A stretch of DNA of 32,811 nucleotides. Source: Promethearchaeota archaeon. Lineage in GTDB: Archaea > Asgardarchaeota > Lokiarchaeia > Sigyniarchaeales > SOKP01. This document shows, in pieces, positions 22,312 to 26,810 of this stretch. The position numbers and the translations under genes are program-made. The notes below the pieces were generated by a model, which was not told the DNA's origin, did not search any database, and was given only the letters and a program-made list of their open reading frames with translations. Location of the stretch: assembly GCA_048940445.1 (NCBI GenBank), contig JBHLON010000036.1:1-32811 (forward strand), in the 5' to 3' direction. The stretch's first letter is position 1; every line of letters starts with the position of its first letter.

Positions 22312-22932
22312 TTATAAGGTTCGATTTCCACAATATTGACAAAACTTTAATTCTAACGGATAAAGTCTACCACAATTCGAACATTTTTTTAAAGAACTTT
22401 TTAGAATCTCTCTTCCAAGCATTTCAAACACAGCTTCAACATTCTGACCTGTTTTTGAGGATGTACCAATAATCTCACCTTTAAAATTATATTTGAAATG
22501 TATTTTTTCAGCATCTTCTTTAGTAACTTCCCTTTGATCCTCTAAATCAAGTTTAGCCTCTACTAATATCTTTGTTTTAGGAGAATTAGGAACAGAATTA
22601 ATCACTTTTATCCAATCATATAAATCTTTCAAAGATTCTCTATTTGTAATGTCATATAAAATTAACGCTCCCGACGCACCAGAGACATAAGAAGGTAATA
22701 GAAGTCTGAATTTCTTCTCTCCAGCGAAATCCCATTTTAACTGATTTATTGAATAAATAAATCATATATTAAGTAGGATTTCGGTATCATCAACTATTAC
22801 CTTTTTTGTTTCAAAATCCACGCCAATAGTAGACAACGTTGATTTATCAAACTTTCCAGTAGCATAGCGCCTAATGAGAGATGTCTTTCCAACATTTTTA
22901 GCTCCACAAATTACAATTTTGAACTTTATCAT
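22312..22932 (-). CDS. Rab/Ras-like small GTPase with C-terminal Zn ribbon. Two exons (22932..22766 and 22735..22312), 196 aa after removal of a 30-nt intron
   Basis: From the ATG at 22932: MIKFKIVICGAKNVGKTS (G1), STIGVDF (G2), LLNI-[insert with in-frame TGA]-WDFAGE (G3), LILYDITNRESL, EAKLD (G4-like), TSSKTG (G5), CSNC...CQYC. The ORF track shows only the 3' fragment 22312..22632. Confidence 0.88.
22736..22765 (-). other. Putative 30-nt BHB/BHL-type intron in a protein-coding gene
   Basis: RNA AUGAUUUAUUUAUUCAAUAAAUCAGUUAAA. Intron helix UGAUUUAUU/AAUAAAUCA (9 bp), 3-nt bulge AUA, central helix UAAU/GUUA (4 bp), AAA opposite CU, exon-exon helix CGAAAUCCUA/UGGGAUUUCG (10 bp). Cuts AU^A and AA^A restore AAU AUA UGG GAU (N-I-W-D). 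Confidence 0.78.
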
Positions 22933-23126
22933 TTCTCAATATTACCTTTAAATAAATTGTATCTGAGTTTATTTCAATATAATATTATTAATATGAATAA
23001 ATAATTTTATGTTTTCTTTTTTAATTGATTTTAAAAGCACTAATAAATCATTTATTAATTGTCAAAATAAATTTAAGTTATAATCTAATTAATTATATTG
23101 AGTAATCCTATATGAAATGAGTGAAT

Positions 23127-23576
23127 ATGACTCAAGAATCATGGAAATATCTAATAAATGGTAGTTATGTGATGTTAGCCTCTTTATTTTTACCGATTGG
23201 TTATACTTCGCTATGTTGTCCTACAACTCATACTTTCATATGGATGTTTTGTACAGTTTCGGTAGGCAATACCGTAGGAATTACTTGGTTTCTTGAAGGA
23301 CTCCCAAATTTTTGGTTCTTTTGGTTTTATTGGATGCTCTTGATTCCATTCCTAATTATTATAGTCAGTTCGCTTATTATAATAAAGTTAGCAAGAATGA
23401 TTAAACAAGGGAAAATAGTCAAAAAAGAGATATTTACATTGATAATTTTTTTTCAAATTGTGGCTCTATTAATAAATTTGGGTGCCATTTTTGGTCAGGT
23501 ATTTTTTGGATATTTGTCATTTTTATTTGCATTAATCTTACTAATTAAAGGTAACAGAAAGTTACATAAAGAATAA
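23127..23576 (+). CDS. Hypothetical multi-pass membrane protein (paralog 1 of a tandem pair)
   Basis: About 4 hydrophobic segments. N-terminus MTQESWKYLINGSYVM matches the next gene. Confidence 0.7.
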   Translation: MTQESWKYLINGSYVMLASLFLPIGYTSLCCPTTHTFIWMFCTVSVGNTVGITWFLEGLPNFWFFWFYWMLLIPFLIIIVSSLIIIKLARMIKQGKIVKKEIFTLIIFFQIVALLINLGAIFGQVFFGYLSFLFALILLIKGNRKLHKE

Positions 23577-23605
23577 TTAAATAATTCAAAAAACAATTTG
23601 GAATC

Positions 23606-24061
23606 ATGACTCAAGAGATTTGGAAAAATCTGACAAACTGTAGTTATGTAATGATAGTGTCTCTATTAATTCCATCTCACTTTTCTATTCTTGGATTTTC
23701 TTACGGAAGATCAGGCATAACTGTTGGGATACTTCTTTGGATACATGGTTTGTTCTACTCAGGCTATGGGATAGGTTGGATTTGGCAAACAACTTATACT
23801 CGTTATATAGGGGTTCAACTTATAGATTCTCTGTATCTAATAATTATAATTGCGATAAGCTCATATATTCTCGCTCGAGTAATCAAGAAAAAGGAAGCAA
23901 TTAGAAAAAATACAGTTTATGTAATGGTTGGTTTAATAATCTTTCTACAAAGTATGTTATTGTTACTTAATTTAATCATGCGTCCCTTTTTACCATTTTT
24001 TGGTTATTTATTGTGGGTATTTGCTCTTTTTTTATTGGTTAAAACTATAAAAACTTTATAA
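23606..24061 (+). CDS. Hypothetical multi-pass membrane protein (paralog 2 of a tandem pair)
   Basis: MTQEIWKNLTNCSYVM...FFGYLLWVFALFLL, same length and layout as paralog 1. Confidence 0.7.
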   Translation: MTQEIWKNLTNCSYVMIVSLLIPSHFSILGFSYGRSGITVGILLWIHGLFYSGYGIGWIWQTTYTRYIGVQLIDSLYLIIIIAISSYILARVIKKKEAIRKNTVYVMVGLIIFLQSMLLLLNLIMRPFLPFFGYLLWVFALFLLVKTIKTL

Positions 24062-24062
24062 T

Positions 24063-26411
24063 CTAAACTTTATCCTCATTTGTATATTTATAACGACTGA
24101 TTTTAAGAATCTCTTCGGCAATTTTTTTCCCAATATTCTCAACTCGCATCAATTCTCCATAATCTGCATTAAAAATGTTTTGGAGAGATTTTAATTCTTT
24201 CAGGAGATTCTTTGCTCGAAGTGCGTTTACACCAGGTATCCCAGCTACAATATATTCCAATAGATGGTCAATTTCGATAGGTTTCTTTTCAAATCTTAGT
24301 TTTGGTTCTCCCTTCGACTCCGCAAATTCTTTTTTCGCTAATTGGAATAGAAATTTAGCCGTTTCTAAAGAATCCTTAGTCTTATAAATCAATACTCCAA
24401 GATTAAGTATAATCGAAGTAATTGCACCGTAGAGGGCATTTTCATTTATCGCAGAACTCCCAAATGGGTCACCCTCTAAAATTAATATAGGTTTCTCAAA
24501 ATTGTTTTTCAAGTCAAATAATTCATTAAATAGCCTTCCATCTTTTAGAGAATCATTAAAATCTTGGCTGGATTTTCTTTCAATACCTACTCTGTCTGAA
24601 ATTACATAATCTGCTACTTCTAGCTGTTTTAGCTTTAATTTTGCTCCCATAAGTGATAGATTTCTAACAACTGAGGAGGAAGTTTCTCTATTGTCACAGA
24701 TTATAAAAAAACCTTCACTTTCATTTGACTGGATTCTTTCTGATTGAATAGTCTCATTATTTTCTCTATCATTCGTTTGTGAATTTTTTTTTTCAATAAA
24801 ATTTAAGAGATTAGGTTGATCATTTTTCAGAGACGATTCCGATTCTTTCATTTTTTTAAGACTCTGCCTCATATTTTTCTCTTTTGACTTTTCAGCCCAA
24901 TAATAGCCCTCGTCTCGAGTATTTTCTGCCATTAATACGTAAACCTTGCCCTCCTTTCTTCTTCCAGTTCGTCCTCTTCTTTGAATCGATCTTATTGCGC
25001 TTGGTACGACATCATAAAATATCACTAGATCACATTCAGCAATATCCAATCCTTCTTCAGCAACACTGGTTCCTACTAAAGTATTGAAAACCCCTAATTT
25101 AAAGTCTTCTAAAATACTGATTTGTTCTTTTTGAGACAAACCTTTATCATATGATCTCTTCTGTTGCCCTACAAATTTATGGGCCTTAATGATTGGGTGG
25201 TTATCTAAAAATTTTACAATATTATTAACAGAATCCCTAAAATGACAAAAAACTAAAACCCTAGAACTTGGATTTTGCATTAGTTCATGCTGTAATATTT
25301 CGACTAATTTTTCTAATTTAGGATGAATAATACCCTTTGATAAAACAGAATTTACTAAATTATTCATTCTTTTAAATTCATAGTCTCCATAAAGTTCTTT
25401 TAATGATTTATTTGCAGTGTTTTTCTTTATTTTTTCTTCAATTTTTTCTAAATAATCTTTTAATGCGTTGATACCTTGAGTTTCAATCAATTCCTGCATA
25501 TGAGAAAGTCTAATAGCGTTTGAGGTATACTTTTTAGCAGTAAATAATTGTATCTTTTCTTTATCGTCTCGAGAATTGGAAATCTTCTTGTTTATAATGA
25601 AGTTTAATTTTAATAGATCTTTTCTATTAATTTTATTAATATCTGATGAATTTAAAAGTTCTATTTGTTTTAACCATTTAAAAATAGTTCTTAATTTACC
25701 TGTAAAAATGTTACTAATTTCAAGAAATTCATTTGGAAGAACAATTTTGATCCATTCATTATCAACATTGTGGATATATGGTTTTACATCATAATCTGCA
25801 TCAGTTCTGATTTCAATATGATTTATGAACAAATTATTCTTAATTTCATTTATCTTTCCTTCCGTAGACCCAGGACTAGCTGTGAGGCCTAATATTTGCG
25901 TGTTTTTAGCAAGCTCCATGTATTTTTGAGCAATAAAACAATATGCATAGTCTCCAATTGCTCTGTGGCATTCATCGAAGATTATTAAAGATACATCCTT
26001 AATTGTGTAAAGATTGGAAATTATATCGTTTTGTAAGACTTGAGGAGTCATAAATGCGACTTTAGCTTCATTCCAGATGCTCAAACGCTTATTAGGACTA
26101 ATGTCTCCGGTTAATGCTACTAAGTTGGTTTCTGGAATATTAGTTAATTTTAAAAAAGATTGATAGTGTTGATTTACTAAAGGTTTTGTTGGAGCTAAAA
26201 AAATTGTTTTGCTATCTGGTAAATTTGAAAGTCTTTGTACAGCTAACATTAAACCTAGTATGGTTTTACCCAATCCAGTAGGAATAACTACTAAACAGTT
26301 TTTATTCAAACAATTAATAAAAATATTTTCTTGGTATGATCTTCTAATTACCGCATTTTCTTTAATTAAAGGATGGGAAATAAAGTCTTGTTTAGTAGAT
26401 ACGAAAATCAC
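24063..26411 (-). CDS. hef: Hef helicase-nuclease (FANCM/XPF-like: SF2 helicase + ERCC4 nuclease + HhH)
   Basis: PTGLGKT, DECH, TASPG, EEGLDI, QRRGRTGR; ERCC4 motifs DNRE, DY, ERKS; HhH motifs IPGV and VENIG. Confidence 0.93.
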   Translation of the reverse strand: MIFVSTKQDFISHPLIKENAVIRRSYQENIFINCLNKNCLVVIPTGLGKTILGLMLAVQRLSNLPDSKTIFLAPTKPLVNQHYQSFLKLTNIPETNLVALTGDISPNKRLSIWNEAKVAFMTPQVLQNDIISNLYTIKDVSLIIFDECHRAIGDYAYCFIAQKYMELAKNTQILGLTASPGSTEGKINEIKNNLFINHIEIRTDADYDVKPYIHNVDNEWIKIVLPNEFLEISNIFTGKLRTIFKWLKQIELLNSSDINKINRKDLLKLNFIINKKISNSRDDKEKIQLFTAKKYTSNAIRLSHMQELIETQGINALKDYLEKIEEKIKKNTANKSLKELYGDYEFKRMNNLVNSVLSKGIIHPKLEKLVEILQHELMQNPSSRVLVFCHFRDSVNNIVKFLDNHPIIKAHKFVGQQKRSYDKGLSQKEQISILEDFKLGVFNTLVGTSVAEEGLDIAECDLVIFYDVVPSAIRSIQRRGRTGRRKEGKVYVLMAENTRDEGYYWAEKSKEKNMRQSLKKMKESESSLKNDQPNLLNFIEKKNSQTNDRENNETIQSERIQSNESEGFFIICDNRETSSSVVRNLSLMGAKLKLKQLEVADYVISDRVGIERKSSQDFNDSLKDGRLFNELFDLKNNFEKPILILEGDPFGSSAINENALYGAITSIILNLGVLIYKTKDSLETAKFLFQLAKKEFAESKGEPKLRFEKKPIEIDHLLEYIVAGIPGVNALRAKNLLKELKSLQNIFNADYGELMRVENIGKKIAEEILKISRYKYTNEDKV

Positions 26412-26591
26412 CGAAATTGATGAATTTTATTATTATTCGAATATATCTTTTATTAATCTGTTATATAGTTATAGAGTCAATAGAATCTCTTAAATTATAT
26501 TGATAACTTTTTAATAATAAGTTAATAGAGGAATTTGAAATAATTGGAGTTTTAGCTAAATACGCGCGAGTGGTCTAGGCGTTATGACGAC

Positions 26592-26623
26592 ATTTTATAT
26601 ATGATAACTATGAAAAACGTTAT
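26592..26623 (+). other. tRNA intron 1 (32 nt, position 28/29)
   Basis: Central helix GACG/CGUU, bulges AC^A and AU^A, intron helix UUUU/AAAA, outer helix GGCG/CGCU. Removal yields a perfect anticodon stem. Confidence 0.78.
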
Positions 26624-26639
26624 ACGCTCACACCGTGTA

Positions 26640-26671
26640 AATCATCACTAACTAATAGTTTCGATCTCGAC
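26640..26671 (+). other. tRNA intron 2 (32 nt, position 44/45)
   Basis: Central helix CGUG/CUCG (one U-U), bulges UA^A and AC^G, intron helices AUC/GAU and ACUA/UAGU. Removal yields variable loop AGGUC. Confidence 0.72.
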
Positions 26672-26810
26672 GGTCGGGGGTTCAAATCCCCCCTTGCGCA
26701 TTCTTTTCTGATAATATTTATTATTAAATTAGGATACTATGTTTTAAACCAAAAAAGTTTTATTTTATAATGTATTCTAAATTTTAAACACTTTTTTTAT
26801 GGGATAAACC

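What the first reader, a model, noticed from the sequence alone, without database searches (positions are those of the whole stretch)
22312..26700. Shared architecture of one mRNA intron and two tRNA introns suggests genome-wide EndA/RtcB splicing, possibly regulatory
Seen: three short AU-rich inserts (30, 32, 32 nt) within about 4 kb all fit relaxed BHB geometry, and all begin with A. The GTPase insert and tRNA intron 1 share a layout (clean 5' bulge, 3' site in an internal loop) and similar 3' ends (GUUAAA vs GUUAU). Inference: the endonuclease must be permissive enough to mature this tRNA, so it could also tolerate or spread introns into mRNAs. The unspliced GTPase mRNA would encode only a 56-aa G1/G2 fragment, so splicing could act as an on/off switch. 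That would be analogous to the non-spliceosomal, RtcB-ligated XBP1 intron of animals. Other 'split' genes in this genome may be intron-containing.
Basis: inference. Interest (0 to 1): 0.8.

Follow-up and report, generated by a model that had tools for sequence, protein, structure and literature searches.

The report
tRNA-type mini-introns in Asgard genes
A Loki-type Asgard archaeon carries a 30-base tRNA-style intron inside a Rab-like GTPase gene next to a doubly interrupted tRNA, and comparison with relatives indicates that such mini-introns come and go in both tRNAs and protein genes and must be cut out of the RNA, but nothing supports the idea that this one is a regulatory switch.

Summary
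Observation confirmed. The three inserts exist at the stated coordinates.

- **GTPase insert.** The 30-nt insert (22736-22765, minus strand) is absent from all 98 orthologues examined. They lack it at exactly the site where canonical bulge-helix-bulge (BHB) cuts fall. Removing it joins Pfam Ras positions 1-52 to 53-161.
- **tRNA-Val(CAC).** Intron 1 is missing from 5 of 17 species at exactly the predicted junction. Both tRNA introns show covariation.
- **Genome-wide mRNA splicing: supported.**
  - A motif-free comparison with a sister species found two more ORF-breaking 31-33-nt inserts, in a UvrA-like gene and in aEF-1alpha. Both have BHB geometry; 27 ordinary indels do not.
  - The only detected aEF-1alpha gene (one match per genome) is split in 6 of 38 species.
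  - The genome encodes an (alpha-beta)2 EndA with the specificity-loop lysine, and RtcB.
- **Regulatory switch: unsupported.** The GTPase intron is specific to this species. The same intron type sits in essential housekeeping genes (aEF-1alpha, metG, uL11), which points to constitutive splicing.
- **Trivial claims.** The introns share no sequence. "All begin with A" and "similar 3' ends" carry no weight.

No RNA data were available, so splicing is inferred. This scan has already reported such mRNA mini-introns on other DNA, in this genome and in at least 15 others. In the searchable literature, coding-region BHB introns are reported only for cbf5.

The parts
22766..22932 (-). Exon 1 of the Rab/Ras-like small GTPase (ATG at 22932; G1 motif GAKNVGKT; ends ...LLN + AU of the Ile codon)
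   Evidence: Pfam Ras profile positions 1-52, E 7e-13. The ORF is listed.
22736..22765 (-). 30-nt, 87% A+T BHB-type mini-intron. It holds an in-frame TGA. Placements shifted by up to 3 nt towards lower coordinates (to 22733-22762) give the same spliced product.
   Evidence: Absent from 19 + 79 orthologues. BHB score at this register only: H 4/4, outer helix 10 bp, inner stem 9 bp.
22312..22735 (-). Exon 2 (A + WDFAGEKKF... G3 to G5, C-terminal zinc ribbon CxxC...CxxC, stop at 22312-22314)
   Evidence: Pfam Ras positions 53-161, E 6e-23, plus zinc-ribbon families.
22725..22783 (-). Whole splicing motif: outer helix 22783-22774/22734-22725; CU 22773-22772; central helix 22771-22768/22741-22738; 5' bulge 22767-22765; inner stem 22764-22756/22750-22742 with loop 22755-22751; 3' bulge 22737-22735
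   Evidence: MFE and centroid folds contain the outer helix and inner stem, z = -2.66. Register scan.
26564..26700 (+). tRNA-Val(CAC) gene with two introns; 73 nt after removal
   Evidence: Rfam RF00005, 33.7 bits against a gathering score of 29. Orthologues in 17 species.
26592..26623 (+). tRNA intron 1, 32 nt, position 28/29 (or 29/30; one-base ambiguity). Central helix GACG/CGUU uses D-arm bases.
   Evidence: Exactly absent in G017, G021, G045, G016 and G009. The central and inner helices covary: AU/GC/GU and CG/UA.
26640..26671 (+). tRNA intron 2, 32 nt, variable-loop position 44/45. Central helix CGUG/CUCG has a U-U mismatch in this genome.
   Evidence: Present in 17 of 17 species. Six species have a perfect CGUG/CACG helix. 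The inner helices covary: CG/UA and AU/GC. No intron-less orthologue was found, so the exact cut sites rest on BHB geometry and the resulting AGGUC variable loop.

Best explanation
The 30-nt insert in the Rab-like GTPase gene is a recently gained bulge-helix-bulge (tRNA-type) mini-intron. It belongs to the same class as the two 32-nt introns of the neighbouring tRNA-Val(CAC).

Proposed mechanism:
1. In the transcript, exon bases on both sides pair with each other, and exon bases pair with the 3' end of the insert. This presents two 3-nt bulges separated by a 4-bp helix.
2. The heterotetrameric (alpha-beta)2 splicing endonuclease EndA cuts after the second base of each bulge. Its alpha subunit carries the specificity loop that tolerates relaxed motifs.
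3. RtcB joins the exons. The result is an mRNA for a 196-aa GTPase with an intact ...LLNIWDFAGE... strand and G3 motif.

The same machinery serves a floating population of roughly 30-nt introns in this Lokiarchaeia-type genus. They are gained and lost between species in tRNAs and in protein genes, including essential ones. Splicing is therefore most likely constitutive housekeeping and not a switch.

Shown here: the insert, its exact boundaries, the fold, the enzymes' genes, parallel cases, and covariation in the tRNA, aEF-1alpha and P-loop GTPase introns.
Inferred: that cleavage and ligation actually happen on this mRNA.
For: (1) Boundaries fixed without reference to structure. 98 orthologues lack exactly these 30 nt. 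The canonical BHB cut rule lands on that boundary and on no neighbouring register. 19 of 200,000 insert shuffles match it.

(2) Removal joins Pfam Ras positions 1-52 to 53-161.

(3) The gene is otherwise intact and constrained.
- dN/dS against G017 is 0.049, the same as between two intron-less species (0.054).
- The branch leading to this genome has 25 synonymous and 7 conservative non-synonymous codon changes.
- Synonymous changes just upstream of the junction (ATT>ATC, CTT>CTA, TTA/TTG>CTT) all strengthen the motif.

(4) Motif-free census: 940 kb of sister species G017 against this genome, about 960 orthologous ORFs in each direction.
- The only ORF-breaking inserts with conserved flanks are this one, a 31-nt frameshifting insert in a UvrA-like gene (contig C63), and a 33-nt insert in the G017 aEF-1alpha P-loop.
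- All three have a 4/4 central helix at the boundary defined by the alignment.
- 0 of 27 stop-free indels reach a 4/4 central helix together with 5 or more flanking pairs.

(5) aEF-1alpha gives one match per genome and is split in 6 of 38 species, at two sites, by inserts of 31, 32 or 33 nt. Two of these lengths shift the reading frame. RNAalifold recovers an hBHBh' structure de novo, with 3 covarying pairs.

(6) Three other species carry a different insert in the P-loop codons of this same GTPase orthologue. Its central helix covaries: GCC/UGG against GCU/UAG.

(7) More cases in this genome: an amidohydrolase (Pfam 1-288 | 302-472), an AIR-synthase-like gene, metG and uL11.

(8) EndA alpha, beta and RtcB are present. 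Asgard (alpha-beta)2 EndA with the L1 loop is published (PMC5829648).

(9) The exact 56-aa exon-1 product was also called on 2 contigs of Logan assemblies of public sequencing runs.
Against: - No transcript data, so neither the spliced junction nor a circular intron has been seen.
- The intron occurs in one species only, so it has no covariation of its own.
- The 3' cut site lies in a 3x2 internal loop, not a clean bulge.
- A very recent inactivating insertion cannot be excluded. The gene is one of 74 Ras-family matches and so could be dispensable.
- My structure-only scans of the genome showed no excess of frame-restoring BHB candidates over out-of-phase controls (43 against 41-49). Structure alone does not identify introns in this 30% G+C genome.
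- An exact-match scan of JGI metagenome contigs found no second copy.
Confidence: 0.8

Rival explanations
1. Splicing of the GTPase mRNA is conditional and works as an on/off switch, with the unspliced form yielding only a 56-aa fragment.
For: The unspliced mRNA would stop after 56 aa. The relaxed 3' site could make cleavage slower than at a canonical motif. RtcB-dependent regulated splicing exists in eukaryotes (XBP1/HAC1; established knowledge).
Against: - The intron is absent from 98 orthologues, so any switch would be new to one species.
- The same class of intron splits aEF-1alpha (one match per genome), metG and uL11, which must always be expressed.
- No sensor nuclease or accessory element was seen. 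None of the other Ras-family matches carries such an insert.
Confidence: 0.08
2. The insert is a very recent disabling insertion and the gene is a young pseudogene. The hairpin shape is incidental.
For: It is found in one species only. The gene is one of 74 Ras-family matches, and one truncated GTPase copy exists elsewhere in the genome. Slightly more non-synonymous changes fall on this branch (7) than on the sister branches (3 and 4).
Against: - No second lesion in 591 coding bases despite dS of about 0.74 to the nearest species. My arithmetic on the counts allows only a few percent of the branch to be neutral.
- The BHB geometry sits at the alignment-defined boundary in exactly one register.
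- Upstream synonymous changes improve the motif.
- The other ORF-breaking inserts of the same size have the same geometry, including in an essential gene.
Confidence: 0.1
3. The ribosome handles the insert, either by TGA read-through or recoding (adding 10 residues) or by translational bypass of the hairpin as in phage T4 gene 60.
For: The insert is in frame (30 nt). It begins with a stop codon next to a stable hairpin.
Against: - Read-through would put 10 residues between strand beta-3 and the DxxG motif, and no orthologue has them.
- There is no matching take-off and landing codon: AUA before the stop, AAA before UGG (read directly).
- Sister cases of 31 and 32 nt shift the frame and cannot be read through.
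Confidence: 0.01
4. The insert is an assembly or binning artefact of the MAG.
For: The genome is a 139-contig MAG. An exact-match scan of JGI metagenome contigs found nothing.
Against: The exact 56-aa truncated product was also called on 2 Logan-assembled contigs. A structured 30-nt insert at a codon-precise site is not a typical assembly error. Analogous inserts occur in many independent MAGs.
Confidence: 0.01

Closest known systems
BHB intron in the cbf5 pre-mRNA of Crenarchaeota (Desulfurococcales, Sulfolobales; PMC2738675 and the references in it)
   Same: A short intron inside an archaeal coding sequence, flanked by a bulge-helix-bulge motif. It is removed by the tRNA splicing endonuclease of the hetero-oligomeric type and shows gain and loss among relatives.
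   Different: cbf5 is the only gene reported in that lineage, and its splicing is shown experimentally. Here many unrelated genes are affected: a Rab-like GTPase, a UvrA-like gene, an amidohydrolase, metG, uL11, and aEF-1alpha in sister species. The host is an Asgard archaeon, turnover between species is fast, and there is no RNA evidence yet.
Multiple and non-canonical tRNA introns of Asgard and TACK archaea (bioRxiv 10.64898/2026.10.13.758758; PMC5829648)
   Same: tRNA-Val has introns at 28/29 and 44/45, and at a T-loop site in relatives. The motifs are relaxed BHB, standard tRNA finders miss them, gains are repeated, and EndA is the (alpha-beta)2 type with the L1 loop.
   Different: Those papers treat tRNA genes only. 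The 2026 preprint does not contain the word mRNA.
Unconventional XBP1/HAC1 mRNA splicing (IRE1 cleavage, RtcB or Trl1 ligation)
   Same: Non-spliceosomal, protein-catalysed excision of a short intron from an mRNA, with RtcB-type ligation. The reading frame depends on the excision.
   Different: The nuclease and its recognition differ: IRE1 acts on twin stem-loops, EndA on a BHB. XBP1 splicing is stress-regulated, and no sign of regulation was found here.

Membership tests
Archaeal BHB (EndA-type) intron | Two 3-nt bulges on opposite strands, separated by a 4-bp helix and flanked by helices | tested here: met
   GTPase: central helix 4/4, 5' bulge clean, 3' bulge opposite 2 nt (a relaxed form), flanking helices 10 and 9 bp. 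tRNA intron 1: 4/4. tRNA intron 2: 3/4 in this genome and 4/4 in 6 relatives.
Archaeal BHB (EndA-type) intron | Cutting after the second base of each bulge restores a functional product | tested here: met
   The cut sites coincide with the gap in 98 intron-less orthologues and join Pfam Ras 52|53. tRNA intron 1 coincides with the gap in 5 species.
Archaeal BHB (EndA-type) intron | The structure is maintained by compensatory change | tested here: inconclusive
   The GTPase intron exists in a single species, so covariation cannot be measured for it. It is met for the tRNA introns (9 pairs, 0/500 shuffles), the aEF-1alpha intron (3 pairs) and the P-loop GTPase intron of relatives.
Archaeal BHB (EndA-type) intron | Cleaved by EndA and ligated by RtcB in vivo or in vitro | not testable with these tools
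   No RNA or enzyme data. The genes are present: EndA alpha (G000:C3), EndA beta (G000:C62) and RtcB (G000:C94).
(alpha-beta)2 EndA with broad substrate range | Two paralogues: one with the Tyr/His/Lys triad plus the specificity-loop Lys, one non-catalytic | tested here: met
   Alpha aligns end to end with the catalytic subunit of Aeropyrum EndA (3P1Z_B, E 3e-38). Its SKPR Lys lies on K44, and Y, H and K are kept. Beta has Ala where the catalytic His sits. Actual substrate range was not tested.
Ras/Rab-like small GTPase | G1 GxxxxGK[ST], G3 DxxG and an NKxD-like G4 in a Ras-family fold | tested here: met
   GAKNVGKT, WDFAGE and EAKLD are present. The Pfam Ras profile is covered 1-161 across the two exons. 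GTPase activity was not tested.
tRNA-Val(CAC) | Cloverleaf with anticodon CAC after intron removal | tested here: met
   Rfam 33.7 bits with the inserts in place. The G017 orthologue lacks intron 1 and reads ...GACGAC ACGCUCACACCGUGU.... ARAGORN misreads the gene as Ile with a 63-nt intron.
Programmed translational bypass (T4 gene 60 type) | Matching take-off and landing codons flanking a stop and a hairpin | tested here: not met
   The take-off codon is AUA and the codon before UGG is AAA. Sister inserts shift the frame.
IRE1-type unconventional splicing | An IRE1 kinase-RNase (KEN domain) encoded in the genome | tested here: inconclusive
   PF06479 gave no match, but the control genomes did not ring either.

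The most novel reading that the evidence does not exclude
Lokiarchaeia-type Asgard archaea hold a mobile population of roughly 30-nt EndA/RtcB-spliced introns. These colonise protein-coding genes as readily as tRNAs and settle preferentially in the most conserved, motif-coding stretches: P-loops of GTPases and aEF-1alpha, the HIGH motif of metG, and the G3 strand here. If so, there is a specific insertion route, for example reverse splicing or recombination with spliced or unspliced copies. Splicing efficiency at relaxed sites such as this GTPase would then be a usable regulatory knob in the closest prokaryotic relatives of eukaryotes.
Probability: 0.15. Interest if true: 0.9.

Novelty: new variant of a known kind. 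Interest (0 to 1): 0.72.

Why it matters
Protein-catalysed (EndA/RtcB) splicing of coding mRNAs is documented in archaea for a single gene, cbf5. If a lineage close to the eukaryotic ancestor routinely interrupts protein genes, some of them essential, with tRNA-type introns that turn over between species, several things follow:
- Interrupted protein genes that depend on RNA splicing are not confined to eukaryotes.
- Gene callers systematically truncate or split such genes in Asgard MAGs. Here they produce a 56-aa and a 106-aa fragment in place of a 196-aa GTPase.
- The system offers natural gain and loss events for studying how introns arrive and how exon sequence adapts to the splicing motif.

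Tried and rejected
1. **Structure-only genome scans.** I looked for BHB motifs that join two open frames and for strong BHBs whose excision rescues a frame. In-phase candidates showed no excess over out-of-phase or shifted controls. The scans still ranked the GTPase, AIR-synthase-like and amidohydrolase introns near the top. Structure alone is not evidence in a 30% G+C genome.
2. **GTPase paralogues with 'stops inside'.** Twelve paralogues in relatives were flagged this way. The stops lie beyond the C-terminus, so none is interrupted.
3. **The only other stop-containing Ras-family match in this genome** (C107:73610-74068). It is a truncated copy without a G1 motif and has no intron.
4. **Sequence kinship among the three introns, or a repeat family.** Nothing beyond the self-matches.
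5. **Short stop-containing gaps of 14-25 nt from the census.** Their flanks are poor or they lie at gene ends, and they have no BHB. I did not count them.
6. **My first placement of the metG intron.** It restored VNVIPH but gave no good BHB. The better BHB register predicts VNAVPH.
7. **Independent copies.** An exact-match scan of JGI metagenome contigs returned 0 hits.
8. **IRE1 KEN domain search.** The control was uninformative.
9. **ARAGORN and Rfam.** They find only about 20 tRNAs in this 93%-complete genome. I made no full tRNA intron census.
Full report
**Context**

The window is the whole of contig C72 of a 3.64-Mb, 139-contig, 30% G+C genome that is 93% complete. Orthologues of its genes come from MAGs labelled Promethearchaeota/Promethearchaeia, i.e. 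Lokiarchaeia-type Asgard archaea. The region holds:
- a Rab/Ras-like GTPase on the minus strand (22312-22932);
- two paralogous membrane proteins;
- a Hef-like helicase-nuclease;
- a tRNA gene (26564-26700);
- rpoK.

**The GTPase insert**

The minus strand reads ...ILLNI, then TGA, then nine further codons, then WDFAGEKKF....

- *Orthologue gap.* A DNA alignment with 19 orthologues of the same genus shows one clean 30-nt gap at AATAT|(A/T/C)TGGGA. A further 79 orthologues from public MAGs all read LLNI|WDFAGE without interruption.
- *Protein continuity.* Pfam Ras matches exon 1 over profile positions 1-52 and exon 2 over 53-161.
- *Fold.* I scored BHB geometry at every register around the gap. 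The geometry requires a 4-bp central helix, a cut after the second base of each 3-nt bulge, and flanking helices. Only the register that reproduces the orthologue sequence fits. It gives central helix UAAU/GUUA, a clean 5' bulge AU|A, a 9-bp inner stem, a 3' bulge AA|A opposite CU, and a 10-bp exon-exon helix. The thermodynamic fold contains the outer and inner helices. With the exons held fixed, 19 of 200,000 shuffles of the insert did as well.
- *Selection.* dN/dS against the nearest species is 0.049. Between two intron-less species it is 0.054. The branch to this genome has 25 synonymous and 7 conservative non-synonymous codon changes and no other lesion.
- *Flank adaptation.* The codons just upstream of the junction differ from the two nearest species by synonymous changes (ATT>ATC, CTT>CTA, TTA/TTG>CTT). 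Each adds a pair to the motif.
- *Independent assembly.* The exact 56-aa truncated product was also called on two Logan-assembled contigs.

**The tRNA**

Rfam finds a tRNA of 137 nt. ARAGORN misreads it. Removing 26592-26623 and 26640-26671 gives tRNA-Val(CAC).

Across 17 species of the genus:
- intron 1 is present in 12 and missing in 5, exactly at GACGAC|ACGCUC;
- intron 2 is present in all 17;
- a third, 30-nt intron in the T-loop is present in 13 but not in this genome.

On that alignment the two BHB structures are paired in 89.9% of cells, against 25-44% when the partners are slid. Nine pairs change on both sides, and 0 of 500 shuffles reach the covariation score. The central helix of intron 2 has a U-U mismatch here and in 10 other species; it is perfect in six.

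**Is mRNA splicing general?**

*Structure-only scans failed.* Frame-restoring candidates were no more frequent than out-of-phase controls.

*Motif-free census.* I fetched 940 kb of sister species G017 and compared about 960 orthologous ORFs in each direction. The only ORF-breaking inserts with conserved flanks were:
- the GTPase insert;
- a 31-nt frameshifting insert in a UvrA-like gene of this genome (contig C63);
- a 33-nt insert in the P-loop codons (GHIDHG|KST) of aEF-1alpha in G017.

All three have a 4/4 central helix at the alignment-defined boundary. None of 27 stop-free indels of 12 nt or more combines a 4/4 helix with five or more flanking pairs. By my own arithmetic, 3 of 3 against 0 of 27 corresponds to about 1 in 4,000.

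*aEF-1alpha.* It gives one match per genome in 38 genomes and is interrupted in six:
- five at one site, with inserts of 31, 32 or 33 nt;
- one at a site nine bases upstream.

RNAalifold, with no prior structure given, returns outer helix, 4-bp helix, 3-nt bulges and inner stem, with three covarying pairs. An essential gene with no second copy detected that carries frameshifting inserts can hardly work unless the insert is removed from the RNA.

*The same GTPase orthologue in other species.* Three other species carry a different insert in the P-loop codons (AGAK|N/D VGKT). Its central helix covaries: GCC/UGG against GCU/UAG.

*Other genes in this genome.*
- An amidohydrolase is split by a canonical 30-nt BHB (Pfam 1-288 | 302-472).
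- An AIR-synthase-like gene is split by a canonical 30-nt BHB.
- metG is split at its HIGH motif.
- uL11 is split twice.

The last two were leads from earlier notes of this scan. I confirmed the interruptions but only partly confirmed their exact cut sites.

**Enzymes**

- One EndA paralogue aligns end to end with the catalytic subunit of Aeropyrum EndA. It keeps Tyr/His/Lys and the Lys of the Crenarchaea-specific loop.
- The second paralogue has Ala in place of the catalytic His.
- RtcB is intact.

This fits the published statement that Asgard archaea have (alpha-beta)2 EndA with the L1 loop, the type that cuts relaxed motifs (PMC5829648).

**What is not supported**

- *Regulatory switch.* No evidence favours it. 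The intron is new to one species, and the same class of intron sits in genes that must always be expressed.
- *Shared sequence.* The three introns share none, and none has a second copy in the genome.
- *'All begin with A' and the similar 3' ends.* These are what AT-rich bulges and an ambiguous cut site give.
- *GTPase family trend.* None of the other 73 Ras-family matches carries such an insert (one is a truncated copy). Twelve apparent cases in relatives were stops beyond the C-terminus.

**Comparison with what is known**

In the searchable literature, BHB introns inside archaeal coding sequences are reported only for cbf5 of Crenarchaeota (PMC2738675; searches). Heavy, dynamic interruption of Asgard tRNA genes is described in a 2026 preprint (10.64898/2026.10.13.758758) that does not mention mRNA.

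This scan has already reported such mRNA mini-introns in this genome and in at least 15 others, including EF-2, EF-1alpha and Elf1. Within the scan this is therefore a repeat. What this report adds:
- a dated, species-specific gain, with 98 intron-less orthologues;
- a motif-free census with a negative control;
- the finding that the same orthologue and the same tRNA carry different introns in different species.

**Limits**

- No RNA data were available, so splicing of this mRNA is inferred.
- The census covers about a quarter of one sister genome. It cannot see introns shared by both species.

Noticed in passing
L036:12940-13040 (G017) and L037:14094-14260 (G019); alignment A6: The tRNA-Val(CAC) orthologues of 13 of 17 species carry a third, roughly 30-nt insert inside the T-loop (GGGGGUUCAA[...]AUUCCC). 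This genome lacks it. Five species lack intron 1. One tRNA gene therefore shows three independently varying intron sites within a genus.
   Followed up: partly
L176:2709-2793 (G017), L180, L181, L186, L187, L188: aEF-1alpha, which gives one match per genome, is split in its P-loop codons by 31-33-nt BHB inserts in 6 of 38 genus genomes, at two sites 9 nt apart. The copy in this genome (G000:C107:44778-46082) is intact.
   Followed up: yes
L109, L110, L113 (about 230-300 in each locus): Three other Promethearchaeota MAGs carry a 33-38-nt insert in the P-loop codons of the orthologue of the window's GTPase (AGAK|N/D VGKT). The central helix covaries between exon codon GCC/GCU and intron UGG/UAG.
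   Followed up: partly
G000:C63:31208-31238 (minus strand; L088): A 31-nt frameshifting canonical BHB insert splits a UvrA-like ABC ATPase at the FNEPSG|C... motif. The G017 orthologue (L062:12331-14862) is intact.
   Followed up: partly
G000:C47:64002-64031, G000:C61:8911-8940, G000:C10:14382-14413, G000:C61:46028-46141: Further roughly 30-nt inserts split an Amidohydro_3 gene, an AIR-synthase-like gene, metG (at the HIGH motif) and uL11 (two inserts). Many of the insert sites seen lie in the most conserved, motif-coding part of the gene. This could be detection bias or a real site preference. It is unexplained.
   Followed up: partly
G000:C107:73610-74068 (minus strand): A truncated Ras-family copy without a G1 motif and with stops upstream of its WDxAG. 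It sits next to an intact paralogue and looks like a decayed tandem duplicate.
   Followed up: partly
G000:C63:21668-22148 (minus strand): The orthologue of a 157-aa G017 ORF aligns in two overlapping pieces in different frames, with about 10 extra bases. This is a possible frameshift or a very short insert.
   Followed up: no
window 23121-24061 (+): Two tandem 151-aa paralogous multi-pass membrane proteins (MxQExWK... N-termini) lie between the GTPase and the Hef-like helicase.
   Followed up: no
whole genome G000: ARAGORN and Rfam each detect only about 20 tRNA genes in a 93%-complete genome. Most tRNA genes are probably hidden by multiple or non-canonical introns.
   Followed up: no
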